Source: Candidatus Acidiferrales bacterium (lineage in GTDB: Bacteria > Acidobacteriota > Terriglobia > Acidiferrales > UBA7541). Taken from it: 64,000 bases of DNA. The DNA lies in the NCBI GenBank assembly GCA_050746725.1, contig JBOGMX010000009.1, positions 52,734-116,733 of the forward strand, written 5' to 3'. The notes below the pieces were generated by a model. The model searched no databases. It was not told the origin of the DNA and worked only from the letters and a program-made list of their open reading frames with translations. This document shows, one piece after another, positions 4,009 to 14,798 of the stretch; positions within the stretch are counted from its first letter, which is position 1, and each line of letters starts with the position of its first letter. The translations under genes and the position numbers were made by a program.

Positions 4009-4935
4009 ATGAATCGCACAGGAGAAGCAACGGCATTGACCGGGGAGGAAGCATGGCCGGCGCTGCCTCTCTCCGAATGGCAAGCAACGCGGGACACGCT
4101 TCACATGTGGACGCAAGTGGTGGGCAAGGTACGGCTAGCGCTGGCGCCACACGTAAATCACTGGTGGCAGGCGACGCTCTACGTGACCGCGCGCGGACTT
4201 TCGACGTCGGCGATTCCTTGCGGAAGAGGAATCTTCGAGGTTGAGTTCGACTTCATTTCGCACGCATTGCAAATCCGTACGAGTTGGGACCAAGCGCGGA
4301 TGATGCCGCTTGCGCCAGTGACGGTGGCCGAGTTTTATAGGAACTTTATGGCTTCGCTCGAGTCACTGGGCATTTCGGTAAGGATTTGGCCCATGCCGGT
4401 CGAGGTTCCGAATCCGATCCGGTTCGACGAGGATACGGTGCACCAGTCATACGATCCGGCATACGCGCATCGCTTTTGGCAAATTTTGGCGACCGCGGAT
4501 ACAGTTTTCAAGGAGTTTCGCGGACGGTTTATCGGCAAGTCGAGTCCCGTGCATTTCTTCTGGGGCAGCTTCGATCTGGCGGTGACGCGCTTTTCGGGGC
4601 GGCGCGCGCCCGAGCGGCCGGGAGCGGATCGCGTTACGCGCGAAGCGTACTCGCACGAAGTAATCAGCGCGGGATGGTGGCCCGGCGGAGGAGATGTGAA
4701 ACAGCCCGTTTTCTATGCATACGCGGCGCCGCAACTGCCCGGATTTCGCGAGGCGCCGGTGAAGCCAGCGCATGCAGCATACAACGCGCAGCTCGGAGAA
4801 TTTGTGTTGCCGTACGATGACATGCGAACCGCCCACGATCCGCGGCTGGGGCTCCTCGACTTTCTACAGAGCACCTATGAAGCCGGGACGACGAGCGGAA
4901 ATTGGGATCGCGGGGCGCTGGAGAGACCCTTCTAG
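4009..4935 (+). CDS. DUF5996-family protein
   Basis: Start at the ATG at 4009 (MNRTGEATALTGEEAWPALPLSEWQATRDTLHMWTQVVGKVRLALAP..NHWW). Family assignment is from memory of this conserved N-terminal pattern. The upstream part of track ORF 3676-4935 overlaps the zf-UBP gene in another frame. Confidence 0.65.
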   Translation: MNRTGEATALTGEEAWPALPLSEWQATRDTLHMWTQVVGKVRLALAPHVNHWWQATLYVTARGLSTSAIPCGRGIFEVEFDFISHALQIRTSWDQARMMPLAPVTVAEFYRNFMASLESLGISVRIWPMPVEVPNPIRFDEDTVHQSYDPAYAHRFWQILATADTVFKEFRGRFIGKSSPVHFFWGSFDLAVTRFSGRRAPERPGADRVTREAYSHEVISAGWWPGGGDVKQPVFYAYAAPQLPGFREAPVKPAHAAYNAQLGEFVLPYDDMRTAHDPRLGLLDFLQSTYEAGTTSGNWDRGALERPF

Positions 4936-4956
4936 GCTGGTAGCCGGGCGAAACAA

Positions 4957-5724
4957 TTATGCTTGCCCGCCGTAGAGCGCGACCGCGCTCGAAGGCGAGG
5001 GAGCGGAAGGAACTTCCAGGCGCTTGCGAACGGCACGATGGCGCTTGGCAAAGTGCGCCTGTGCGCGGCGCCCCCACGCGCGCACGAAATAATAGTTAAT
5101 CGCAGCGCCAGCGGCCATTCCGACCACCGGGATCAGGCGACCAGCCCATTTTTCGGCGACGTCCTCGCCTACTCGCATGGCGATGCGGTCAATAATGCGC
5201 GGGACCAGTTGCTCCGCGGCCTGCTTGCCGAGAAAGTCGCGTCCCAGATCCACGCCCGCCGCAGTGGCGGCAGCGATCCAGAGCTGGATGTTGTCGGCCT
5301 CCGTTGAGTACTCAAACCCATGAAGGAGACTGAGCTTTTGCAACGTTCGGAGAGTAATTGTGGCGAGGGCGCCCATATCGGGGACGACGGTGAGAAAAGC
5401 GCCGATGCCAAATCCCGCGCCTTCGAGCGCGGCCAATTTCGAAGAGGCGGAAATGGTGCTCTCCGCAATCGGCGCGATGACTTCGGGCTCCAGATGAAGC
5501 ATCTGCGGCCAGGACTCTACCGGCAGTTTATGGGCGCGCTGAACGTGCTTGAGGTACTTGTGCTCGTCCACGCGCACCTGCGTATAGGCGCGGCGAAATC
5601 CAGCATTCGCGAATGCCGTTAGCGCGCCGAGGGACGGCCGAGGCTGTTTCCTCTCCGCCATATTTTGATTGGATGCGCTTGGGCGTCGAAAGGCGTCGCG
5701 AGTTCGGGGAAAAGGGCGATTCAC
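4957..5724 (-). CDS. EcsC-family protein
   Basis: Pattern KYLKHVQRAH..SSKLAALEGAGFGIGAF..LRTLQKLSLLHGF..AAINYYF, typical of EcsC. An alternative start at 5661 (MAERKQ) is possible. Confidence 0.7.
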   Translation of the reverse strand: MNRPFPRTRDAFRRPSASNQNMAERKQPRPSLGALTAFANAGFRRAYTQVRVDEHKYLKHVQRAHKLPVESWPQMLHLEPEVIAPIAESTISASSKLAALEGAGFGIGAFLTVVPDMGALATITLRTLQKLSLLHGFEYSTEADNIQLWIAAATAAGVDLGRDFLGKQAAEQLVPRIIDRIAMRVGEDVAEKWAGRLIPVVGMAAGAAINYYFVRAWGRRAQAHFAKRHRAVRKRLEVPSAPSPSSAVALYGGQA

Positions 5725-5798
5725 AGTATAGCGCCTGAAAATCGTTCAGGTTCGAATGCCGCGTCGCAACAAAATTGCCCGAGCGCGGGAGAGGCGCT

Positions 5799-8700
5799 TC
5801 AGCGCGTCATGTAATAGTAGATAGTGGGCGTGACAAACAGCGACAGAATCATCGCGATGAGCAGCCCGCCAATCACAGCGACGGCCAGCGGCTGCAACAT
5901 CTGCGAACCCGAGCCAATGGCGAGCGCCAGGGGTAGCATTCCGGCGACGGCGGCGATTGCAGTCATCACGATCGGGCGCAATCTCCGTCTGCCGGCTTGA
6001 AAAATCGATTCCTCGGGAGAGAAACCAGCGCCCCGGAACTTTTCATCAGCGTCCAGCAACAAGATGCCATTCTTCGCGACGATGCCAATGACCATGATCA
6101 GGCCCATGAACGATGACAGGTTGAAAGTGATGCCCGCGAAAAACAAAGCCACGAAAACGCCGGCCGTCGATAGCAGCGCGGACACCAGGATCGAAATCGG
6201 CGCGGAGAAATTGCGAAATTCAAAGAGCAGAACCAAGAAGACAAAGAGCACGGCGAGCGCCAGCACGAGAGTGAGATCACGGAAGGATTGCTGCTGTGTT
6301 TTATACAGGCCGCCGTATTCGATGCGGATCGATTCGGGGAGGTTCATTTTGGCGAGTGTTGCCTGAACATCCGAGATTGCATGGCCCATATCGAGGCCCT
6401 GTAGCCTGGCGGTAACGGAAACAAAGCGCTGCTGGTTATCTTGAAGAATCTCGGTCTGGCCGGGAATTTCGGTCATGTTCGCGATCGAACCCAGGGTAGC
6501 GATCTGGCCGGTAGGGCTGACGATGACCGTGTTCTCCATGGAAGAAAGCGAGGAGCGAACGCTTTCGGGATAACGGATGCGCACCGCATACGGACGGTCG
6601 TTCACCACCATGGGCTGTAATGTGGTGACGCCATCGAGCATCGCGGTTGTTTGATCGGCGATGTCCTGCGGGGTGAATCCGGCGTGCGACGCTTTCGCCA
6701 TGTCCACTCGAAATGAAACGGCTGGCCCGCTGGTGGTCGAGTCCACGCCGTTGTCGACATCGACGATAGGGTGGGCGCCGCCGATCTGAATATTTCCGAT
6801 CGCATCCGCCACGCGAATGGCCCATTCGTCGAGCAGTTTCGCGTCGGGATTGAACATCATAATGTCGATGGGCTGCGGCGCGCTGGTGAGGTCTCCAATC
6901 ATGTCCTGAAGCTTCTGCGTGAACTCGACGTCCACGGCAGGATCGGATCGGGCAACCTTGGCGCGAATTTCGTCCATGATCTGCCAAACATCACGGCTGC
7001 GATTGGTTTTTAGGTCGACGGAAATGTCTCCCGTGTTCGCTTCGGTAACGGCTGCAAGGCCGAGCTGAAGGCCGGTGCGGCGCGAAGTGCTGGCAACTTC
7101 GGGAATGGAGTCGACGATATTCAATATGCCCTGCACCATGCGATTGGATTCCTGAAGCGAACTGCCGGGCGGAGTAACGTAGTCGATGATAAAGCTGCCT
7201 TCGTCCATTTTCGGCAGCAAGTCGGAGCCGATCTGACGGTAGCAGAGGTACGATACACCGATCAGAAATACGGCCAGAATGGGCACCCATACCGGATGTT
7301 TCAGGCTTCGACGAAACCAATTCTCGTAAAACCGGATCACGCGGCCAAAGGCGCCCTTCATCAGGTGTTCTTCCTCAGCTTGCAGCATGTGGGCGATTTC
7401 GAGATCACGGTCTTGCCCTTTCGCGGCCGGAGGGGCTTGCTCCAAACTCGGCGAGGATGGCGGAGCCGGTAGTTCGGCGCGGGCAGCCGGAGGAGGAATG
7501 GACTGCTTGCGAAGCAAGTAGAGGCACAGAGTCGGCGTCCAGGTGAGCGCAAGAGTCAAGGAAGTGAGGAGCGCGGCGGCGATGGTTACCGCCATCGCGC
7601 GGAAAAATACTCCGGTGACGCCGGTAATGGCGACCAGCGGAACGAAAACCACGATCGGAGTGAGCGTGGAACCGACCAGGGCCGTCGAAAGCTCCTGCAA
7701 GGTGAGCGAAACGGCCTGGAATCTTCCCTCACCCGCCTCGCGGTGAAGCACGACGTTTTCCAGAACGACGATTGCATCGTCGATGATCAGCCCGACCGCG
7801 GCAGCCATGCCGCCCAAAGTCATCAAATCGAAGCTCTCGCCCAGGAGCTTCATTACGATGAAGGTGACTAGAAGACTGATTGGAATCACCATGCCGGCAA
7901 TGAAAGAAGTTCCCCAATCGCGCAGGAAGAGGACGAGAACCGCGGAAGCCAACAGAAGGCCGATGATGATCGCGTCGCGAACGCTCTTGATGGATTGGCC
8001 CACAATCCACGACTGATCGTAAAAGGTGCTCACGTGGATGCCGGGCGGAAGTCCCTTTTCGATCCGCGCCAATTCGGTTTTCACGGCCGTGGCCACTTGC
8101 ATAGTGTTGCTGCCACGCTGGCGATTGATGTTGATTAGTACGGCAGGCTTGCGGTTAGCGGTAACGATGGTGAAGTGCGGCCTGAACGATGGCGCAACCG
8201 TGGCAACGTTGCCCACATAGATCGGAGTGCCGTCCGGCGCATACTTGATGAACGTATTGGCCAACTCTCGCTGGTTGTGGGATTGGCCGGTAATCAGTCC
8301 TAAAAACAGCTGATGGTTTTGCGGAAAGAGACCGGGGGATTGAATGATGTTGGACCGGTCGACCGCGGCGAGGAGGCCTGAAACACTCACGCCGGTGAGC
8401 AGCAACTTAGCCGGATCGGGAACGATGTGGAATTCGGGTTCTTCCCCGCCCTGGATCACGATTGTTGAGACTCCCGGAAGCCCAGCGAGGCGCGGTTTGA
8501 TCTCGTATGTCGCGATTTGCCAGAGCTGCTGCTGAGAAATGGTCTTGGACGTAAGGCCGTAGCCGAGGATGGGAAAGCTGGAAAATTCGAGGCGCTGCGC
8601 GCTGACTTGCGCAGTCAGTGGAAGAGTGGTTTCCACGCGCGCCAGAGCCGCATTGACGCGCTGGAGGGTCTGAAACATGTCGACCTTCCAACTGAAGTAG

Positions 8701-9029
8701 AGATCTATTTCGGCGGAGCCGCGGCTGGTGGTCGACTGCACGTCCTGAATGCCCTGAACGCCGCTGACCGCTTCCTCGATGGGCCGCGTAATGGTGACGA
8801 GCATTTGGTCGATGGGCATCACGCCGTTGTCGACGGCGACGATGACGCGCGGGAAATCCGTGGTAGGAAAGACGGCTAGCGGAATGCTGAAGGCCAGGTA
8901 CGCGCCCACTAGCGCCAGAGTGACGATCAAAAAAATGATGGATTTGTGCTCGCGCGCGAACCAGTAATTTTGGGACTCGGGCAAGCCGTGGTTCGGTTTT
9001 CGGGTGTTGGTTGCGGTTGAATTCGCCAT
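5799..9029 (-). CDS. Efflux RND transporter permease subunit (CusA/CzcA-like)
   Basis: 1076 aa with a 12-TM RND architecture and two large periplasmic loops. Conserved GLIIDDAIVVLENV and IVAKNGILLLD motifs. The long cytoplasmic linker with ..RFYENWFRRSLKHP.. resembles heavy-metal (HME) RND pumps. Confidence 0.95.
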   Translation of the reverse strand: MANSTATNTRKPNHGLPESQNYWFAREHKSIIFLIVTLALVGAYLAFSIPLAVFPTTDFPRVIVAVDNGVMPIDQMLVTITRPIEEAVSGVQGIQDVQSTTSRGSAEIDLYFSWKVDMFQTLQRVNAALARVETTLPLTAQVSAQRLEFSSFPILGYGLTSKTISQQQLWQIATYEIKPRLAGLPGVSTIVIQGGEEPEFHIVPDPAKLLLTGVSVSGLLAAVDRSNIIQSPGLFPQNHQLFLGLITGQSHNQRELANTFIKYAPDGTPIYVGNVATVAPSFRPHFTIVTANRKPAVLININRQRGSNTMQVATAVKTELARIEKGLPPGIHVSTFYDQSWIVGQSIKSVRDAIIIGLLLASAVLVLFLRDWGTSFIAGMVIPISLLVTFIVMKLLGESFDLMTLGGMAAAVGLIIDDAIVVLENVVLHREAGEGRFQAVSLTLQELSTALVGSTLTPIVVFVPLVAITGVTGVFFRAMAVTIAAALLTSLTLALTWTPTLCLYLLRKQSIPPPAARAELPAPPSSPSLEQAPPAAKGQDRDLEIAHMLQAEEEHLMKGAFGRVIRFYENWFRRSLKHPVWVPILAVFLIGVSYLCYRQIGSDLLPKMDEGSFIIDYVTPPGSSLQESNRMVQGILNIVDSIPEVASTSRRTGLQLGLAAVTEANTGDISVDLKTNRSRDVWQIMDEIRAKVARSDPAVDVEFTQKLQDMIGDLTSAPQPIDIMMFNPDAKLLDEWAIRVADAIGNIQIGGAHPIVDVDNGVDSTTSGPAVSFRVDMAKASHAGFTPQDIADQTTAMLDGVTTLQPMVVNDRPYAVRIRYPESVRSSLSSMENTVIVSPTGQIATLGSIANMTEIPGQTEILQDNQQRFVSVTARLQGLDMGHAISDVQATLAKMNLPESIRIEYGGLYKTQQQSFRDLTLVLALAVLFVFLVLLFEFRNFSAPISILVSALLSTAGVFVALFFAGITFNLSSFMGLIMVIGIVAKNGILLLDADEKFRGAGFSPEESIFQAGRRRLRPIVMTAIAAVAGMLPLALAIGSGSQMLQPLAVAVIGGLLIAMILSLFVTPTIYYYMTR

Positions 9030-9044
9030 GGACGATTTGAAGGC

Positions 9045-10310
9045 CTAGCCGCCTCCACCGTTCGCGGCGGCGGCTTTAGAAATACGCACCTTCGTGCCGT
9101 CGGGCAGACCGTACGCGCCTTCGGTAACGATTCGCTCGCCGGGGCGCAGGCCGCTAATTATCTGCACTTCGTCGTCTTCATGAATGCCGGTCTGGATGCT
9201 GGTTTGGCGCGCGAGCCGATCCTTGCCAATAACCATCACGGAAGTGGCGCCATTGCCCGCAGTGAGCACTGCCGCAGATGGAACCACCAGCGCGTTTTTC
9301 ACGACGCGCGCGATTATATTCACGTTCACGGTGGCGCCGGGCCTGAGTTGGTCTTTAGGATTTAGGGCTTCCACCCAAACTTCGACCGTGGTGCTATTCG
9401 GATTGAGTGCGGGGCTCACGACGGTTACCTTGGCCGGAACCGTTGGCGCGCTACCCCCGAGCAAGATGGTCGCGGGATCGCCCACATGCAGCACCGAAGC
9501 CTGATCGGGCGAAATGTAGGCGCGGCCGATCACGTGCGAGAGATTCATGATCGTCATCATCGGCGCGCCGGCAGTGGCCATTTGGCCTTCGTAGAGCGGG
9601 CGATCGGTTACGACTCCGGTGATCGGACTGCGGATTAGGGAATATTGCAGTTGTGCGAGCGCCGCTTCGTACTGACCCTTTGCGGCGGCCAGCTGGCCCT
9701 TGGCGGTCTGTTCGGCGGCGCTTTGGCCAACTTTCCGCAGGCCCTGCAGATGGGCCAGGGCCATCTGATATTGGTTATTCGCCTGCGTGAAGGCGACACG
9801 CGATTCTTCCATCAAATTGCGCGAGATCGCCCCGGCTTTGTAGAGTTTTTCCCGGCTTCGATAGACCATGCGGCTGGATTGCATCGCCTGTCGCGTGGCT
9901 TGGACGTTCAAATTTGCGTTTTGAATCTGGGCGGGCAAACTCACCTGCGTGCTGGTGGCGTAGGCGGCTTGTGCCTGTTCGTAGGCACCCTTAGCCTGGT
10001 CCGCTGCCGCTTGCAGGTCGTTATTTTCCAACTTCGCGACGCGTTGACCCGCCTGCACGTGGCTGCCGCGGTTTACGTAGAACTTTTCAATCGGAGCGCT
10101 GATTTTCGGAACGATGGAGACTTCGTTTTTCGCGTAGAGCACCGCCTCGGTGGAGATAATTTGCTGAATCGTGTTCCGCTGCACGGTTGCGGCCTGCACG
10201 GTGACGACCGGCTCGGCGGGCGGTTTATTGCTCGAACAGCCGGCCCATGCAACAGTCGCACATAAGATCAACGGGCCAGCTGCGGCGCGAAACGTCCTGT
10301 GTTTATCCAC
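9045..10310 (-). CDS. Efflux RND periplasmic adaptor (membrane fusion protein, HlyD family)
   Basis: Lipoprotein signal LILCATVAWAGCSS, coiled-coil hairpin region, and barrel-sandwich / beta-barrel C-terminal part. Sits 15 nt upstream of the RND permease. Confidence 0.9.
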   Translation of the reverse strand: MDKHRTFRAAAGPLILCATVAWAGCSSNKPPAEPVVTVQAATVQRNTIQQIISTEAVLYAKNEVSIVPKISAPIEKFYVNRGSHVQAGQRVAKLENNDLQAAADQAKGAYEQAQAAYATSTQVSLPAQIQNANLNVQATRQAMQSSRMVYRSREKLYKAGAISRNLMEESRVAFTQANNQYQMALAHLQGLRKVGQSAAEQTAKGQLAAAKGQYEAALAQLQYSLIRSPITGVVTDRPLYEGQMATAGAPMMTIMNLSHVIGRAYISPDQASVLHVGDPATILLGGSAPTVPAKVTVVSPALNPNSTTVEVWVEALNPKDQLRPGATVNVNIIARVVKNALVVPSAAVLTAGNGATSVMVIGKDRLARQTSIQTGIHEDDEVQIISGLRPGERIVTEGAYGLPDGTKVRISKAAAANGGGG

Positions 10311-10312
10311 GC

Positions 10313-11710
10313 TCAGAAGCTCCCCGTGATCGTCTGCAGGGTGGCCAGCGCATCGCGATAGCGCGCCTCGCCTGTGGCGTAGCTATTGCGCGCATCCACC
10401 AAGGAGGTTTCGGCGTCAAGAACATCCAACACTACAGCCGATCCCGCTTGATACTGCATGGTGACTAGCTGCAAGTTCTGCTGCGCCAGATCGACCGAAT
10501 GACGCAAATTCCCCAGCTGGTTCCAGGCCACTTCGGACTGGTCGTAATAAGAGTGCAGCAAGCTGATGATTCTCCGGTGCGCGAATGAAAGATCGAGTTT
10601 GGCGGTTTCCCTTTGCTCCTCCGCGGCGTGAAGCTTGCTGAGCCGCGCGCCCCAGTCCCAAACGGGGATGTTCATGGAATAGGTAACAAAGTATCCCAGG
10701 TTCGGCTCCCGGACGTGCGGCGCAGTGGTATTTTCGCTTTCCAGAGCAAAATGATTTGCTTCAATACCATAATCGAAGTCAATCGAGAAGGAGGGAAAAA
10801 ACTCCGACCTCGCTGATCCGACAGCGACTTTCGATGCATTGTAGGCTGCCAACGCAGATGCGACGTCGGGATTGTGATTTTTGGCCATTGCCTCGGCTTG
10901 CTCAAAACTTGGCAGAACGGGAGGGGTGTCCAGGTCGTCGACAACATTGAAATCTTCGTTGAAGCTCGGAAAGAGCAATACGGCCAGATTTAACCGTGCT
11001 TGCGACATGGCCAATTGCGCGTCGCCGAGATTCCGCTGCGCCTGACTGACCTGCAGCTCAAAACGAATTACAGCCTGATGAGCAATCTCGCCGCCCTGCT
11101 CCAGCGCCTGGCTGATTTGCTGAAAGTGCTGCGCGTTGGTCAGGCTTTGCTGCGCGACGGCGAAGCTGCGTTCGGAGACGACGAGCGCGTAATAATCTTG
11201 GGTGATAGTGACGACGAGACTCCGCCCCGCGATCTGCGCACCGGCCTGCGCGATGGCTTTCTCGTACGCGGCGCGCCGAGGACCAGCATCGATGAAAAAG
11301 CTGCCGGGCATGTCCTGGTGAGCTGCGGCCCAAGCGCGATACACGTGCACACCGTCGTTGGTCACAAAGCGGCCAACCGGCGAGATGCCGTTGCCCTGGG
11401 TATTCAGGTACTGCGCCAAACCGCTGATGGCCGGCAGCATGGCGGCGCGGGCCTGCACTTGGTTGTATCGTGCAAGTTTTACGGCTGAGAGAGCTCTTTG
11501 AAAGTCGGGGCTGTTTTTCTGCGCGCGCGCGAGGGCGTCGGCGAGCGTCAACATCAACGGCGCGCTATTGGCCGACGGCGCTTGCGCGGCAGACTGCCCT
11601 TCCGCTGCGGGCACTGCCGTTAAAGCAGCGGTTTGCGCCAGTGCGTGCCCGGCGCAAAGGCTAATTGCAAGGAACACGCCTGCAATTAGTTTAAAAGTTC
11701 CGCCGAACAT
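10313..11710 (-). CDS. TolC-family outer membrane efflux protein
   Basis: Two TolC-like repeats with long helical segments. I start at the ATG at 11710 (MFGGTFKLIAGVFLAISLCAGHALAQ, a clean signal peptide). The track ORF extends to 11896 with an Arg-rich N-terminus. The stop is 2 nt from the MFP start. Confidence 0.85.
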   Translation of the reverse strand: MFGGTFKLIAGVFLAISLCAGHALAQTAALTAVPAAEGQSAAQAPSANSAPLMLTLADALARAQKNSPDFQRALSAVKLARYNQVQARAAMLPAISGLAQYLNTQGNGISPVGRFVTNDGVHVYRAWAAAHQDMPGSFFIDAGPRRAAYEKAIAQAGAQIAGRSLVVTITQDYYALVVSERSFAVAQQSLTNAQHFQQISQALEQGGEIAHQAVIRFELQVSQAQRNLGDAQLAMSQARLNLAVLLFPSFNEDFNVVDDLDTPPVLPSFEQAEAMAKNHNPDVASALAAYNASKVAVGSARSEFFPSFSIDFDYGIEANHFALESENTTAPHVREPNLGYFVTYSMNIPVWDWGARLSKLHAAEEQRETAKLDLSFAHRRIISLLHSYYDQSEVAWNQLGNLRHSVDLAQQNLQLVTMQYQAGSAVVLDVLDAETSLVDARNSYATGEARYRDALATLQTITGSF

Positions 11711-11994
11711 ACGACTGCGCCGCAAGGCGTGCGCGCGTTTCTTTCGCGCGGCAGTACTATAGTTCCAAATCCTTTGCTCTTCTGGCGGCATTTTATCCAT
11801 GGTCATCGATTCTCCTCCAAAGCATCGCCCGAATCGGGCGCCGCAGCGCGCGCCTGCGAGACGCGGCGATCTCTTTTCCCTTCGGAAAGCAAACACAAAT
11901 CGCGGGTCGCAAGCAGCATACAGGACCTACAATTCCAAGTACGCAGCGAAGCGAAGTGGTGTTACGCATGCAGAAGACTTCCCAAGAATGTGCT

Positions 11995-12002
11995 GAAGCT
12001 TG
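11995..12002. repeat. Left copy of the 8-bp target-site duplication GAAGCTTG
   Basis: Identical 8-mer directly abuts the outer end of each terminal inverted repeat (11995-12002 and 14629-14636). Confidence 0.75.
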
Positions 12003-12019
12003 GGTGGTGTCCTAATTTG
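12003..12019. repeat. Left terminal inverted repeat of the IS
   Basis: GGTGGTGTCCTAATTTG matches the reverse complement of 14612-14628 at 16 of 17 positions. Confidence 0.8.
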
Positions 12020-12031
12020 AAGTTCATGTCC

Positions 12032-12217
12032 CTAGTTCGAGGCATTGAGCGTGCTCCGAATCCATTCCGAAACGGTATGTTTTGCGGCCTTCGCCTTCGA
12101 CTCAATCGCCTTCATTTCGTCGGGAGTCACGCGCACACGCAAAAACAGTCCCTTAGCGTGTCCCTTCGGCAACGGTGGACGCCCTGCTTTCTTAGGCTTC
12201 GTCTGCTTGTGGCTCAC
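12032..12217 (-). CDS. Ribbon-helix-helix (CopG/MobC-like) small DNA-binding protein, IS passenger
   Basis: 61 aa. Basic N-terminal tail, then LFLRVRVTPDEMKAIESKAKAAKHTVSEWIRSTL (beta strand - helix - helix pattern). GTG start with GGAG about 11 nt upstream. Overlaps the upstream ORF by 26 nt. Confidence 0.55.
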   Translation of the reverse strand: MSHKQTKPKKAGRPPLPKGHAKGLFLRVRVTPDEMKAIESKAKAAKHTVSEWIRSTLNASN

Positions 12218-12509
12218 GGCTTCTAAACTCCTGTACGATGGCGGCTCTCACGGCCAAGAGTGGCGATGTTACTTTGTCCATATGGAGCACAGTTACATAC
12301 CGTTTCTTCCCGTCCGCGTCATGCGACCATGCGTAAATCTTCGTTGCTTTCGGATGGTCGATCAGCTCAAACACTTCTACGACGCCTTCCCAAACTGTTT
12401 TGCCTTGAAACGTTTCCTTGATTGGGACGCTCTCAAGGTGACGCGATTCGACGCCGTGCAAGCGGCGAATCGCCTCCCCTAATTCTTCGATGTATCGCTC
12501 GCCTGCCAT
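12192..12509 (-). CDS. Hypothetical 105-aa protein, IS passenger
   Basis: Globular-looking sequence (..ETFQGKTVWEGVVEVFELIDHPKATKIYAWSHDADGKKRYVTVLH..). Its ATG overlaps the upstream stop (TAATG). I recognise no domain. Confidence 0.55.
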   Translation of the reverse strand: MAGERYIEELGEAIRRLHGVESRHLESVPIKETFQGKTVWEGVVEVFELIDHPKATKIYAWSHDADGKKRYVTVLHMDKVTSPLLAVRAAIVQEFRSREPQADEA

Positions 12510-12805
12510 TAACGTTCTGTCTCATTCCCCACCAACTCTAGGCGGATGCACTTCCCGAATGGCCGATTTTGCATGTCACGAAGGAACGCTACGAAGCCAT
12601 ACAGAACCTTGGCATCCGAAGGGCCTTCAATTTGAGTGGCGGCAGCATCGCTAGCAATGGACTCCTGGCAATTCGGGCATTGCCTTACTATTTGACGATC
12701 TATCTTTTCAATCGGAACGAAGTAGGTAGCTTCGCAATGTGGACAGTGGAATCCGATGCTACGAATATCTTTAGGAGCTACCAAGATGCGATTTTCACTT
12801 GTCAT
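12509..12805 (-). CDS. Zinc-ribbon protein (CxxC..CxxC), IS passenger
   Basis: 98 aa with CPHC-x21-CPNC. Its ATG overlaps the transposase stop (ATGA). Confidence 0.55.
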   Translation of the reverse strand: MTSENRILVAPKDIRSIGFHCPHCEATYFVPIEKIDRQIVRQCPNCQESIASDAAATQIEGPSDAKVLYGFVAFLRDMQNRPFGKCIRLELVGNETER

Positions 12806-13605
12806 GCCGCGGCCTCCACCAAGTCTCTAACGCTCCAAAAATCTCTCTCGACGCCCGCTGCCATAGCCGGGGTGCAGCGCAGCGTGCCGTGGCTCTTCAC
12901 TAAATTGTAATAGGCGAAGTGAAGCGCAGCGGCGGCTTCAAAGTTTTCCAGCTTCTTGCTGAAAGCGTAGGTCAACCGGGTAAGACGGCGCATGTGCAAA
13001 CGGGTCGTGCCGTTCAATCGCTCGATGTGGCTCGTGGAAGCCATCTGCATATCAGGGCGACCCGAATAAGCTTTCTTGTTCATTCGAATAACTTCCGCGT
13101 CCATCGAATCGTTCTCAAAAACCTTCACGATCTGCGCGAAGTCCACGTTTCCGCCGAACGCGCCCTCGACCGCTGTAACGTAGGCGTTAAGGCCGTCCGT
13201 TGAAATTTGGACTCGGTTTGTCATCCGGCTTGCGACATCCGCGACAAAGGCATTCGCCGTCGCATGGTCGCGTTTGCCGACCTTGAATGAAGGAACAAGC
13301 TTCGTGTCCGAATCAATCGCAACCCACGTCCAAACATCGCCAAGGGTCGAACTATCATCAGGGCGCACATGCTTTTCCTTTTTGCCGACGAATCCCCAAA
13401 TTTCGTCTAGCTCTAGATGCTGGCAGGGCAGCTCGCGCATCTTCGCGTCTAGCAGCGATTGGCAGCCCATCCCTACACGCACGCCCAACCGCATGATGGT
13501 ATCCCGATGCACGCCAGTCTGCCGTTCAATAGAGCGGATGCTAGAGCCTTCCGCGAGCGCTCCGATGATTGCCGTTTGCTTTTCCGTGCTCAGGATGTTT
13601 GCCAT
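12802..13605 (-). CDS. IS1-family transposase (single ORF, N-terminal HTH plus DDE domain)
   Basis: Start at the ATG at 13605 with AGGAGA 7 nt upstream. N-terminal HTH EGSSIRSIERQTGVHRDTIMRL. IS1-like LELDEIWGFVGKKEK. Candidate DDE residues lie in WTWVAIDSDTKLV, ISTDGLNAY and SHIERLNGTTR. 268 aa. Confidence 0.9.
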   Translation of the reverse strand: MANILSTEKQTAIIGALAEGSSIRSIERQTGVHRDTIMRLGVRVGMGCQSLLDAKMRELPCQHLELDEIWGFVGKKEKHVRPDDSSTLGDVWTWVAIDSDTKLVPSFKVGKRDHATANAFVADVASRMTNRVQISTDGLNAYVTAVEGAFGGNVDFAQIVKVFENDSMDAEVIRMNKKAYSGRPDMQMASTSHIERLNGTTRLHMRRLTRLTYAFSKKLENFEAAAALHFAYYNLVKSHGTLRCTPAMAAGVERDFWSVRDLVEAAA

Positions 13606-13627
13606 GTGCGCGTCTCCTATGATAATA

Positions 13628-13656
13628 ACTGTACCCCGATAAATAAGAGTTGTCAA
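13628..13656 (-). promoter_or_regulatory. Putative sigma70-type promoter for the transposase operon
   Basis: On the minus strand: TTGACA, 17-nt spacer, TACAGT, then AGGAGA and the ATG. Confidence 0.4.
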
Positions 13657-13677
13657 CAAGTATTTCTGTGCTACAAT
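13650..13677 (+). promoter_or_regulatory. Putative divergent promoter for the membrane-protein passenger gene
   Basis: TTGTCA, 16-nt spacer, TACAAT. Its -35 box overlaps the transposase -35 box within the palindrome TTGTCAACAA. The -10 ends 6 nt before the ATG at 13684. Confidence 0.35.
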
Positions 13678-13683
13678 AATTAT

Positions 13684-14619
13684 ATGGAAGATCAGCCCAG
13701 CGGCGACAATGTACAAGAGAACGGCAACGAGCCATCGCCCACCGCTTCGAAATCTATAAAGGAGCCAACTGGCGACGCAACACAGCAGGTACGCGGCGAA
13801 AGTACAAACCAGCAGATAGCCAATCTTGAGGACAGGATCAGAAGTGCCGAAAAATGGATGATAGGTCTGACGGGGGCGATTGCTTTCTTCGCTCTCTGCT
13901 CCGTAATAGTCGGCTTTCTTCAGTGGTCCGTTATAAAAAGCGGCGGCAAGGATACACGTTCTTTGGCCGACGCAGCCAAGACGCAAGCGGCTCAAATGAC
14001 TAACGTGTCTGATGCCGCTGACAAAATCAAGAACGCCGCCCAAAATATGGTCGCGCAAGACCAACGGATAGCCGACAACTCCGAGGCCGCTCTGAAGGCC
14101 ACAACGAAACAGGCCAAGTCCGCCTTGGATTCCAGTATTGACTCTTCTCATCTCGACCAGCGCGCTTGGTTGGTCGTTTCTACACTGGCGATTTCTGCCG
14201 AACCATCCCAGGAAGACGGGGCCAGCGTCACCGTCTCTCTGGCCAACACCGGAAGAACACCGGCCCTGAAACTGATTAATCAGTCTAAGTTGTTTTTTCT
14301 TGATATCGACCCGGCTGGGGCCAATTTCAATCTTCCCACTAATCCCCGGAGCAGGGCGATAGTCCCTCCGGGTGTTTCTGGAGTTCAATTCACGACGGGC
14401 AAATTGAAATTCAAGAGTCTTAGCCAAGTTGGTCTGTATGAAAGCGGTGTTTATAAAGTCTATGTTCAGGCTCTGATCCGGTACAGAGACGTTTTCGGCA
14501 AATCTCATTGGACCAGCGTATGCGCTTACCACACGTACGGGGCGCGCTTGGACTATTTCCAATTTTGCGAACACGGGAACGAAGTAGACGGTGAACAAGC
14601 ACAAGAGCAGCCAAATTAG
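13684..14619 (+). CDS. Single-pass membrane protein (disordered N-terminus, TM, coiled coil, beta-rich C-terminal domain), IS passenger
   Basis: TM segment WMIGLTGAIAFFALCSVIVGFLQW. A/Q/K-rich helical region. Beta-rich end ..SVTVSLANTGRTPALKL..VYVQALIRYRDVFGKSHWTSVCAYH... The TAG stop (14617-14619) lies inside the right IR. The opposite-strand 615-aa ORF over this region looks non-protein-like. Confidence 0.55.
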   Translation: MEDQPSGDNVQENGNEPSPTASKSIKEPTGDATQQVRGESTNQQIANLEDRIRSAEKWMIGLTGAIAFFALCSVIVGFLQWSVIKSGGKDTRSLADAAKTQAAQMTNVSDAADKIKNAAQNMVAQDQRIADNSEAALKATTKQAKSALDSSIDSSHLDQRAWLVVSTLAISAEPSQEDGASVTVSLANTGRTPALKLINQSKLFFLDIDPAGANFNLPTNPRSRAIVPPGVSGVQFTTGKLKFKSLSQVGLYESGVYKVYVQALIRYRDVFGKSHWTSVCAYHTYGARLDYFQFCEHGNEVDGEQAQEQPN

Positions 14620-14628
14620 GACACTACC
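14612..14628. repeat. Right terminal inverted repeat of the IS
   Basis: CAAATTAGGACACTACC. See the left IR. Confidence 0.8.
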
Positions 14629-14636
14629 GAAGCTTG
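14629..14636. repeat. Right copy of the 8-bp target-site duplication GAAGCTTG
   Basis: See the left copy. Confidence 0.75.
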
Positions 14637-14798
14637 AAACAATTTGCAAAAGCGTGGCGGATACCGCATGATCTTTGTTTGTCTTTACGTAAGCATCATA
14701 CGGGTGCAGGCGACACTCGAAAGTGGCGGCACTGAGCCGTCATTTCGCTGAACGCTAACCGCTTCTTTATTTTCCGCGGACACATCAGGAGGAATTGA

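What the first reader, a model, noticed from the sequence alone, without database searches (positions are those of the whole stretch)
11995..14636. Intact IS1-family element with perfect 8-bp target duplication, inserted between the RND efflux operon and ino1
What the sequence shows:
- The left end GGTGGTGTCCTAATTTG (12003-12019) matches the reverse complement of 14612-14628 (GGTAGTGTCCTAATTTG) at 16 of 17 positions.
- Both ends abut an identical 8-mer, GAAGCTTG (11995-12002 and 14629-14636).
- The ends fit the GGnnnTG termini and 8-9 bp duplications I remember for the IS1 family (ISfinder family summary, from memory).
- The transposase has the IS1-type HTH plus DDE layout.

The element is 2,626 bp, far longer than the roughly 0.8-1.2 kb of a minimal IS1, because it carries four extra ORFs. 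Its interior, especially 13600-14620, is visibly less GC-rich than the flanks. The intact target duplication argues for a recent, still mobile insertion. The outward-reading passenger gene ends inside the right IR, 179 nt upstream of the ino1 start codon, and I see no obvious strong terminator in between. Read-through into ino1 is therefore possible.
Basis: partly seen in the sequence, partly recalled or inferred. Interest (0 to 1): 0.75.

Follow-up and report, generated by a model that had tools for sequence, protein, structure and literature searches.

The report
IS1-type mobile element with fixed helper genes
This is a real, intact jumping gene of the IS1 family sitting between an efflux-pump operon and the inositol-phosphate synthase gene. 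Its "extra" genes are not random cargo but a gene set that recurs in thousands of related elements in soil bacteria, and their function is still unknown.

Summary
Window 12003-14628 is a 2,626-bp element. Its 17-bp terminal inverted repeats match at 16 of 17 positions, and it is flanked by a perfect 8-bp direct repeat, GAAGCTTG.

Related elements at other sites show these are the true ends. Forty-six non-redundant complete relatives carry the same repeats (GGTRGTGTCCTAATTTG), and 41 of them have a perfect 8-bp target duplication.

The 267-aa transposase is IS1-type. It passes the Pfam PF03400 gathering score, and its D67/D137/E194 align with the E. coli InsB catalytic motifs. It is a single ORF with no InsA, no frameshift and no zinc finger.

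The main correction concerns the four extra ORFs, which are not arbitrary passengers:
- The 105-aa protein and the 61-aa ribbon-helix-helix protein follow the transposase in every relative with enough sequence. They are under strong purifying selection (dN/dS 0.10 and 0.18).
- The divergent 311-aa membrane-anchored protein belongs to a hyper-diverse family that fills the same slot in 42 of 50 complete elements.
- The 98-aa zinc-ribbon ORF is a recurrent optional insert.

No nucleotide-level empty site could be found. Read-through into ino1 remains untested, and a conserved promoter-like block upstream of ino1 is intact. The insertion itself is ordinary. The conserved multi-gene architecture is moderately interesting.

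The parts
11995..12002 (.). Left copy of the 8-bp target-site duplication, GAAGCTTG
   Evidence: Read directly from the sequence. Perfect 8-bp duplications flank 41 of 46 complete relatives at other sites.
12003..12019 (+). Terminal inverted repeat at the RHH-gene end, GGTGGTGTCCTAATTTG
   Evidence: The same 17-mer ends the elements in L007, L008 and L097-L176.
12032..12217 (-). 61-aa ribbon-helix-helix protein, the last gene of the transposase operon. It stops 12 nt before the inverted repeat.
   Evidence: Pfam NikA-like PF21983 scores 38 bits against a cut-off of 27. A homolog is present after p105 in all relatives with enough sequence. dN/dS is 0.18 against L007.
12192..12509 (-). 105-aa conserved protein of unknown fold family ('p105'). 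It overlaps the RHH gene by 26 nt.
   Evidence: It has 2,245 homologs, none with a Pfam domain. The AF2 model has pLDDT 88 with an alpha-beta4-alpha layout. Foldseek against the PDB finds nothing below E 0.2. It always lies between the transposase gene and the RHH gene. dN/dS is 0.095.
12509..12805 (-). 98-aa zinc-ribbon ORF (CxxC...CxxC) in the variable slot between the transposase gene and p105
   Evidence: Weak zinc-ribbon hits in Pfam and NCBIfam. The same family fills this slot in 12 of the 24 elements that have something there. The slot is empty in 26 of 50 elements.
12802..13605 (-). 267-aa single-ORF IS1-family DDE transposase with an N-terminal HTH
   Evidence: PF03400 scores 31.7 bits and NF033558 gives E 1.6e-18. 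D67, D137 and E194 align with InsB. More than 8,000 homologs exist, many named 'IS1 family transposase' by their sources. dN/dS is 0.066.
13606..13683 (.). AT-rich 78-bp spacer with back-to-back sigma-70-like promoters. TTGACA-17-TACAGT faces the transposase gene and TTGTCA-16-TACAAT faces the 311-aa gene. Their -35 boxes overlap.
   Evidence: Consensus scan. The block is conserved across the clade, with TTGAC[AG]-N16-18-TAYANT in 66 of 73 distinct upstream regions. Function is inferred.
13684..14619 (+). 311-aa divergent gene. The protein has a disordered N-terminus, one membrane helix, a long helical stalk and a C-terminal beta-sandwich. Its stop codon lies inside the inverted repeat.
   Evidence: AF2 model. 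Foldseek gives only generic Ig-like matches. A family member occupies the same slot in 42 of 50 complete elements. A profile search finds 15,443 representative clusters at E<=1e-10. It is only 23% identical to the L007 counterpart although the transposases are 91% identical.
14612..14628 (-). Terminal inverted repeat at the 311-aa-gene end, GGTAGTGTCCTAATTTG on the - strand
14629..14636 (.). Right copy of the 8-bp target-site duplication, GAAGCTTG
14646..14674 (+). Flanking context, not part of the element: promoter-like block TTGCAA-N17-CATGAT upstream of ino1. It starts 17 nt beyond the element's end and is left intact by the insertion.
   Evidence: The block is conserved upstream of ino1 in most of the aligned Acidobacteriota relatives (L022 lacks it). 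Promoter function is inferred.

Best explanation
Window 12003-14628 is an intact copy of a transposable element whose transposase belongs to the IS1 family. It inserted into the 358-bp divergent intergenic region between the RND efflux operon (- strand) and ino1 (+ strand), duplicating the 8-bp target GAAGCTTG.

It is a typical member of a large, mostly soil- and peat-Acidobacteriota clade with a fixed layout:
- inverted repeat;
- a divergently transcribed gene for a membrane-anchored protein with a coiled-coil stalk and a variable head;
- a compact bidirectional promoter;
- a single-ORF transposase;
- an optional small ORF (here a zinc ribbon);
- a 105-aa protein;
- a 61-aa ribbon-helix-helix protein;
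- inverted repeat.

Shown:
- the ends, the 8-bp duplication and the IS1-type DDE transposase;
- strict linkage of p105 and the RHH protein to the transposase, and purifying selection on both;
- cassette-like replacement of the membrane-protein gene and of the middle slot.

Inferred:
- The transposase binds the 17-bp repeats through its N-terminal HTH and makes 8-bp staggered target cuts.
- The RHH protein, probably together with p105, is an element-encoded DNA-binding regulator or cofactor of transposition. It would fill the role that InsA plays in classical IS1, which this clade lacks.
- The variable membrane protein is cargo that gives the host or the element a selectable phenotype.
- Transcription may leave the element at both ends.
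For: Ends and duplication:
- establish the repeats and the 8-mer in the window.
- L007 (transposase 91% identical) has the same repeats at a different site with duplication AAAGATTC.
- Of 46 non-redundant complete elements, 38 show a perfect 8-bp duplication by simple pairing. Three more do when the outer repeat is used, and two have one mismatch.

IS1 affiliation.

Accessory-gene linkage:
- p105 and RHH homologs follow the transposase gene in L007, L008, L009-L016 and in every one of the 80 metagenome loci that has enough downstream sequence.
- The reverse look-up of p105 homologs in Verrucomicrobiae and Sulfuricaulis MAGs lands in the same gene array.

Selection: dN/dS is 0.066 for the transposase, 0.095 for p105 and 0.18 for RHH.

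Variable slots.

Promoter block.

Composition: the clade averages 51.7% GC and is below its flanks in 34 of 37 loci. The window copy is 52.6%.

RHH protein: it passes the Pfam gathering score for NikA-like, a family of DNA-binding accessory proteins of relaxases.
Against: - No empty site or second copy was found for this particular insertion. The exact transposase occurs only at this same site in three assemblies of one study.
- The nearest syntenic relative (L017) lacks the whole RND operon as well as the element, so it does not provide an empty site.
- The NCBIfam IS1 score of 67.4 is below that model's cut-off of 100.
- The transposase lacks the InsA/InsB frameshift and the zinc finger of classical IS1.
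- Nothing here shows what p105, the RHH protein or the 311-aa protein do. p105 has no structural or sequence relative in the PDB.
- The inverted symmetry around the promoter can be explained by two back-to-back promoters without any operator.
- ISfinder could not be queried, so the clade may already be catalogued there.
Confidence: 0.8

Rival explanations
1. The p105/RHH pair is a type II toxin-antitoxin-like addiction module that stabilises the element or its carrier replicon. On this view it is not part of the transposition machinery. p105 would be the toxin and the RHH protein the antitoxin and autorepressor.
For: - The two genes are small and overlap by 26 nt, with the RHH gene second. This order is known from higBA, brnTA and hicAB (established knowledge).
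- The RHH protein gives weak hits to RelB-antitoxin (E 0.002), DUF6290 (E 0.0014) and a HicB-like PHROG.
- The pair is strictly co-inherited.
Against: - p105 matches no known toxin family or fold. Pfam, NCBIfam, PADLOC and PHROGs give nothing, and Foldseek and PDB sequence searches give nothing.
- Both p105 look-ups outside Acidobacteriota fell inside the same transposase array, not in free-standing pairs.
- The best RHH family hit is NikA-like, a relaxase accessory protein.
- The RHH protein has no obvious toxin-binding extension beyond a basic N-terminal tail (read from the sequence).
Confidence: 0.25
2. The element is better classed with IS6/IS26-type elements than with IS1. That would imply obligate cointegrate formation and IS26-like behaviour.
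For: - The 8-bp duplication, the GG termini and the single-ORF HTH-DDE transposase are all IS6-like (established knowledge; PMC7986276).
- Pfam DDE_Tnp_IS240 scores 25.2 bits and NCBIfam IS6 gives E 1.2e-5.
Against: - The IS240 score is below its gathering cut-off of 27, whereas IS1 PF03400 is above its own.
- NCBIfam IS1 scores 67 bits against 25 for IS6.
- Direct BLASTP to E. coli InsB aligns all three catalytic motifs, including the IERxN...R...FSK signature.
- Source annotations name relatives as IS1 family.
Confidence: 0.05
3. The four extra ORFs are incidental passenger genes picked up by this copy, and the element is otherwise an ordinary IS1.
For: - The zinc-ribbon ORF is absent from about three quarters of relatives.
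- The 311-aa gene is only 23% identical between elements whose transposases are 91% identical.
Against: - p105 and the RHH protein are present in every relative examined and are under strong purifying selection.
- The 311-aa family occupies the same slot and orientation in 42 of 50 complete elements.
- The smallest complete elements (about 2.17 kb) still carry the membrane-protein gene, the transposase gene, p105 and the RHH gene.
Confidence: 0.05

Closest known systems
IS1 of Escherichia coli (IS1A; InsA, InsB, InsAB')
   Same: - The DDE catalytic core is homologous: 26% identity, E 7e-8, with the D, D and E motifs aligned.
- The termini fit GGnnnTG and the duplication is 8-9 bp (family summary from memory).
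- An HTH precedes the catalytic domain.
   Different: - The transposase is a single 267-aa ORF with no InsA, no -1 frameshift and no N-terminal zinc finger.
- There are 57 residues between the second D and the E, against 26 in InsB.
- The element is 2.2-4.7 kb rather than 0.77 kb.
- It has three to four extra genes and a bidirectional internal promoter.
Single-ORF IS1-family elements, including the ISfinder 'single ORF' and ISMhu11 subgroups (from memory) and the IS1-family transposases on alphaproteobacterial plasmids
   Same: - They have a single-ORF IS1-type transposase.
- The plasmid relatives are 43-45% identical over the full length and are annotated as IS1 family.
- ISfinder lists IS1-family members up to about 4.6 kb (from memory; not checked).
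   Different: - The plasmid relatives examined have no p105 or RHH genes downstream.
- Whether any ISfinder entry has this gene set could not be tested. A full-text search for 'ISMhu11' found nothing.
Transporter IS (tIS), meaning an IS that carries passenger genes within its inverted repeats
   Same: Non-transposase genes lie between the inverted repeats and move with the element. The definition is quoted in PMC9330008 and PMC7986276.
   Different: Typical tIS cargo is idiosyncratic to one element. Here two of the extra genes are universal in the clade and a third belongs to one family in most members. They therefore behave like core genes.
Multi-gene IS families such as IS66 (tnpA-tnpB-tnpC) and IS21 (istA-istB)
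   Same: Small conserved accessory ORFs are co-transcribed with the transposase and retained across the family (established knowledge).
   Different: There is no sequence relationship. The accessory proteins here are an RHH protein and a 105-aa alpha-beta4-alpha protein with no known relatives.
NikA/MobC-type ribbon-helix-helix relaxosome accessory proteins
   Same: The 61-aa protein passes the Pfam NikA-like cut-off. These are small RHH proteins that bind DNA next to the site where a DNA-processing enzyme acts.
   Different: The partner enzyme is a DDE transposase, not a relaxase. The match covers only the roughly 30-residue RHH core. DNA binding was not tested.

Membership tests
IS1 family | DDE transposase homologous to IS1 InsB (Pfam PF03400) | tested here: met
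   PF03400 scores 31.7 bits against a gathering cut-off of 24.1. BLASTP against InsB gives E 7e-8, with D67, D137 and E194 aligned to the InsB motifs EMDEQWG, MTDG and IERHN. The InsB sequence was verified as 100% identical to annotated IS1A.
IS1 family | Reaches the curated NCBIfam IS1 equivalog cut-off (NF033558) | tested here: inconclusive
   The score is 67.4 bits, E 1.6e-18, below the cut-off of 100. It is still far above the next families, IS6 at 25 bits and IS1595 at 20 bits. NCBI and JGI nevertheless name 73-84% identical relatives 'IS1 family transposase'.
IS1 family | Terminal inverted repeats beginning GGnnnTG | tested here: met
   The ends read GGTGGTG and GGTAGTG, and the same is true across 46 relatives. 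The criterion itself is recalled from ISfinder and was not checked.
IS1 family | Target-site duplication of 8-9 bp | tested here: met
   The window copy has an 8-bp duplication. Relatives have a perfect 8-bp duplication in 41 of 46 cases.
IS1 family (classical IS1 group only) | Two ORFs, insA and insB, fused by a -1 programmed frameshift, with a zinc finger in InsA | tested here: not met
   There is one uninterrupted 267-aa ORF, and the N-terminal 60 residues contain no CxxC motif. This excludes the classical IS1 group. It does not exclude the family, which has single-ORF subgroups (from memory).
IS1 family | Placement by ISfinder curation or BLAST | not testable with these tools
IS6/IS26 family | Transposase matches DDE_Tnp_IS240 or NCBIfam IS6 above the cut-off | tested here: not met
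   PF13610 scores 25.2 bits, below its cut-off of 27. NF033587 scores 25.1 bits, below its cut-off of 125.
Transporter IS (tIS) | Non-transposase genes located between the inverted repeats and mobilised with them | tested here: met
   Four ORFs lie inside the inverted repeats. The same layout, bounded by repeats and duplications, occurs at many sites.
Type II toxin-antitoxin module (p105 + RHH) | The toxin belongs to a recognised toxin family or fold | tested here: not met
   Pfam, NCBIfam, PADLOC and PHROGs give no hit. The best Foldseek hit against the PDB is E 0.22. The PDB profile search gives nothing below E 0.25.
Type II toxin-antitoxin module (p105 + RHH) | The pair occurs as an autonomous two-gene cassette outside the element | tested here: inconclusive
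   Only two independent look-ups were made, and both fell inside the transposase-p105-RHH array. Toxicity cannot be tested here.

The most novel reading that the evidence does not exclude
This clade would be an IS1 lineage that has replaced InsA-type control with an obligatory two-protein module: a new alpha-beta4-alpha protein plus an RHH protein. That module would act as a transposition cofactor or regulator. The clade would also serve as a shuttle that swaps cassettes encoding membrane-anchored proteins with a coiled-coil stalk and an Ig-like head. Those proteins come from a family with more than 15,000 clusters at 50% identity. The IS would then be a vehicle for diversifying a cell-envelope protein, for example one involved in exclusion or phage defence.
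Probability: 0.3. Interest if true: 0.7.

Novelty: new variant of a known kind. Interest (0 to 1): 0.45.

Why it matters
The insertion itself matters little for this genome. It sits in a divergent promoter region and could alter expression of an RND efflux operon and of ino1.

The wider point is that insertion sequences are usually thought of as a transposase plus its ends. Here an abundant IS1 lineage keeps two extra small proteins under selection about as strong as that on the transposase. It has more than 8,000 transposase homologs and is found in soil and peat metagenomes and in several phyla. It also always carries a variable membrane-protein gene driven from a shared bidirectional promoter.

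If the small proteins are transposition factors, they define a new control scheme for IS1-type transposition. If the membrane proteins are exchanged cassettes, the element is a natural vehicle for envelope-protein diversification in Acidobacteriota, a phylum with few genetic tools.

Tried and rejected
- **Empty site.** The exact ino1 and OEP proteins occur only on contigs that already carry the element. Eighty ino1 relatives from species genomes contain no OEP gene next to ino1. In the only upstream-syntenic relative (L017), the EcsC gene abuts ino1, so the whole RND operon is missing as well. Intergenic DNA is too diverged for a junction test.
- **Second copy in the window.** None was found by BLASTN or TBLASTN.
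- **Fold assignment for p105.** The model is confident, but no PDB neighbour turned up.
- **Fold assignment for the 311-aa protein.** Only generic beta-sandwich hits were found. The top hit, archaeal Fusexin1, has a TM-score of 0.23 and an rmsd near 20 A, so I do not treat it as meaningful.
- **Defence-system and phage libraries.** PADLOC gave nothing and PHROGs gave only weak zinc-ribbon, spanin-like and HicB-like hits.
- **Rfam scan of the region.** No hits.
- **Literature.** A search for 'ISMhu11' returned no paper. 'IS1 family' with Acidobacteria returned only IS6 reviews.
- **Operator hypothesis.** An inverted repeat brackets the transposase promoter, with at least 9 of 10 matches in 33 of 73 loci against 1.8 expected. 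It is equally explained by two back-to-back promoters with TACAGT -10 boxes, so I do not claim an operator.
- **24-nt inverted repeat.** The longer repeat suggested by the repeat finder was rejected as an effect of the palindromic AAGCTT in the target.

Full report
**1. The observation**

The sequence is as described. GGTGGTGTCCTAATTTG (12003-12019) is matched by GGTAGTGTCCTAATTTG on the minus strand at 14612-14628, at 16 of 17 positions. GAAGCTTG abuts both ends. With up to three mismatches the 17-mer occurs only at these two places in the 64-kb window. Shuffles give 0.08 expected, and no shuffle reaches two.

The repeat finder therefore reports a 24-nt inverted repeat at 92%. Within this copy alone one cannot say whether the 8-mer is a duplication or part of the repeat.

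The other details also hold:
- The element is 2,626 bp and is the only copy in the window.
- Its GC is 52.6% against 59.4% for the window, the lowest 2.6-kb stretch present.
- The 311-aa ORF ends at the TAG at 14617-14619, inside the repeat and 179 nt before the ino1 ATG.

**2. True ends, from relatives**

The exact transposase is on record only at this same site, in one MAG (GCA_973744465.1) and two Logan assemblies. Homologs, however, are very numerous. The search returned more than 8,000, many named 'IS1 family transposase' and mostly from Candidatus Acidoferrales/Acidiferrales and from soil and peat metagenomes.

- L007 (transposase 91% identical) has the same two 17-mers at a different locus, flanked by AAAGATTC on both sides.
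- Elements with the 81% transposase have the same end at two different flanks.
- Eighty further metagenome loci (transposases 61-77% identical) gave 46 non-redundant elements with both ends.
  - Thirty-eight have a perfect 8-bp duplication by simple pairing.
  - Three more do when the outer of two nearby repeat copies is used (L144, L149, L167).
  - Two have one mismatch.
  - The rest have none, as does L008.
- The duplicated 8-mers show no consensus.

So the repeats start at GG, the duplication is 8 bp, and GAAGCTTG is a target duplication that happens to be palindromic. Element lengths range from 2,166 to 4,730 bp.

**3. The transposase**

The 267-aa product of 12802-13605(-) was compared with several family models:

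| Model | Score | Cut-off | E-value |
|---|---|---|---|
| Pfam DDE_Tnp_IS1 | 31.7 bits | 24.1 | 2.2e-7 |
| Pfam IS6-type DDE_Tnp_IS240 | 25.2 bits | 27 | 1.9e-5 |
| NCBIfam IS1 | 67 bits | 100 | 1.6e-18 |
| NCBIfam IS6 | 25 bits | 125 | 1.2e-5 |

I checked my recalled E. coli InsB sequence against plasmid records, where it is 100% identical to annotated IS1A. BLASTP of the window protein against InsB gives 26% identity and E 7e-8. ELDEIWG aligns with EMDEQWG, STDG with MTDG, and IERLN...R...FSK with IERHN...R...FSK. This places the catalytic residues at D67, D137 and E194.

Unlike classical IS1 there is one ORF, no frameshift and no N-terminal zinc finger, and the spacing between the second D and the E is longer. 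Relatives at 43-45% identity on alphaproteobacterial plasmids are also annotated as IS1 family.

**4. The 'extra ORFs' are clade components**

TBLASTN with the window proteins shows that p105 and RHH61 homologs lie immediately downstream of the transposase gene in L007, L008 (uncalled there) and L009-L016. The same holds in all 80 metagenome loci that have enough downstream sequence. The array always ends about 19 bp before the inverted repeat.

Reverse look-ups of p105 homologs assigned to a Verrucomicrobiae MAG and a Sulfuricaulis MAG land in the same array: divergent gene, transposase, optional ORF, p105, RHH. The 45% plasmid relatives lack these genes, so the pair defines this clade.

Divergence between the window copy and L007:

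| Gene | dN/dS | aa identity |
|---|---|---|
| transposase | 0.066 | 91% |
| p105 | 0.095 | 83% |
| RHH | 0.18 | 67% |
| zinc-ribbon ORF | 0.63 (saturated) | 29% |
| 311-aa protein | 0.35 (saturated) | 23% |

The zinc-ribbon ORF and the 311-aa protein are far too diverged for elements whose transposases are 91% identical. This means cassette replacement rather than in-place divergence.

The 311-aa protein nevertheless belongs to a family that fills the same slot and orientation in 42 of 50 complete elements (iterated HMM). The other eight carry different proteins, most with a similar membrane-helix plus coiled-coil layout.

A profile of its database homologs found the following among 1.84 billion 50%-identity representatives:
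- 39,457 at E<=1e-3;
- 15,443 at E<=1e-10;
- 1,216 at E<=1e-30.

The weakest tier may include coiled-coil noise.

The middle slot is occupied in 24 of 50 elements. Twelve of those carry the zinc-ribbon family of the window's 98-aa ORF, and at least two other ORF families recur there.

**5. What the accessory proteins look like**

- **p105.** It has 2,245 homologs, none with a Pfam domain. The AF2 model is confident (pLDDT 88) with a helix, four strands and a helix. No Foldseek neighbour in the PDB scores below E 0.2, and there is no sequence match to PDB chains. Several histidines are invariant or nearly so.
- **RHH61.** It passes the NikA-like cut-off (38 bits against 27) and gives weak hits to MobA, TraJ, RelB-antitoxin and DUF6290.
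- **The 311-aa protein.** It has a disordered acidic N-terminus, one hydrophobic helix, about 70 residues of long helix and a C-terminal beta-sandwich with pLDDT above 90. The alignment shows one nearly invariant cysteine and a second that is common, in an FC...C..N pattern. Foldseek gives only generic Ig-like domains.

PADLOC gives nothing for any of them.

**6. Expression signals**

The 78-bp spacer at 13606-13683 holds TTGACA-17-TACAGT toward the transposase gene. It also holds TTGTCA-16-(TG)TACAAT toward the 311-aa gene. The two -35 boxes overlap on opposite strands.

This block is conserved across the clade, in 66 of 73 distinct upstream regions. Its inverted symmetry is far above shuffles, with at least 9 of 10 matches in 33 loci against 1.8 expected. 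The symmetry is what two back-to-back promoters would give, so I do not claim an operator.

The -10 box of the 311-aa gene ends 6 nt before its ATG, which suggests a leaderless or near-leaderless mRNA (inference).

**7. Context and consequences**

The element sits in what was a 358-bp divergent intergenic region. One end is 196 bp from the called OEP start at 11806 and the other is 162 bp from the ino1 ATG.

Relatives share a promoter-like block upstream of ino1, TTGCAA-N17-CATGAT at window 14646-14674. It begins 17 nt beyond the element's end and is intact.

The scan finds no terminator-like site on the + strand between the 311-aa stop and ino1, so read-through is possible but unproven. The transposase operon likewise reads out toward the RND operon. 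Only a weak terminator-like hairpin lies in between, at 11912-11900 on the - strand.

**8. Empty site**

No empty site was obtained. In the closest upstream-syntenic genome (L017, ino1 86% identical), the EcsC-family gene that lies beyond the RND operon in the window sits directly upstream of ino1. Both the RND operon and the element are therefore absent there. Intergenic DNA is too diverged for a junction test.

**9. Verdict**

This is an intact IS1-family element with true inverted repeats and an 8-bp duplication. Its low GC is the clade's own signature (51.7 +/- 1.4%, below the flanks in 34 of 37 loci).

The added value is that it exemplifies an abundant multi-gene IS1 lineage that I could not find described. 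In ISfinder terms it is a 'transporter IS' whose cargo behaves as core. I could not consult ISfinder.

The roles of p105, the RHH protein and the membrane protein are inferred, not shown. My weights for the p105/RHH pair are:
- about 45% regulator or cofactor of transposition;
- about 25-30% toxin-antitoxin-like maintenance;
- the remainder for something else.

Noticed in passing
window ~5700-11900 versus L017:5878-7001: In the closest upstream-syntenic relative (Acidobacteria MAG palsa_146), the EcsC-family gene lies directly upstream of ino1. The whole three-gene RND efflux operon (OEP, MFP, pump) is absent there as well as the element. The RND operon may itself be a lineage-specific gain or loss.
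   Followed up: partly
window 14646-14674; L017-L030 upstream of ino1: A conserved block GAAnnnATTTGCAAA-N-GATnCnGCATSAT (TTGCAA-N17-CATGAT-like) lies about 125-150 nt upstream of ino1 in most Acidobacteriota relatives aligned. It is probably the ino1 promoter or a regulator site.
   Followed up: partly
L149:4435-7183: Two copies of the transposase-p105-RHH array lie tail to tail (one at 4435-5733 on +, one at 7183-6149 on -). Extra inverted-repeat copies lie between them, which suggests adjacent or nested insertions of related elements.
   Followed up: no
L008:4137-6302: This 2,166-bp relative (transposase 84% identical) has both inverted repeats but no target duplication (CTGCGCCCCG on one side, AAGGAGTCTC on the other). 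That pattern is what recombination between two copies or an adjacent deletion would leave.
   Followed up: no
L154:1466-1507; L144:5852-5940; L114/L118 right ends: Several loci carry a second, degenerate copy of the terminal repeat within about 25-110 bp of a true end. These may be remnants of earlier insertions or a preference for inserting next to existing ends.
   Followed up: no
L133, L141, L147, L167 middle slot; L117, L138 middle slot: Besides the zinc-ribbon family, at least two other ORF families recur between the transposase gene and p105. One has the motif DWVSARxxCS...LEQWQFRRMALE. The other is a coiled-coil protein of about 122 aa.
   Followed up: no
window 13606-13683 and 14617-14619: Gene callers disagree on the start of the divergent gene, giving 337 aa from the GTG at 13606 or 311 aa from the ATG at 13684. 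Homolog N-termini (M-[EDN]-D...) and the conserved promoter favour 13684. Many family members end in ...N-stop using the AAT-TAG inside the conserved inverted repeat.
   Followed up: partly
L179/L180 (Verrucomicrobiae MAG), L182-L184 (Sulfuricaulis MAGs): The same element architecture appears in MAGs assigned to other phyla. That implies inter-phylum transfer, unless these contigs were mis-binned.
   Followed up: no
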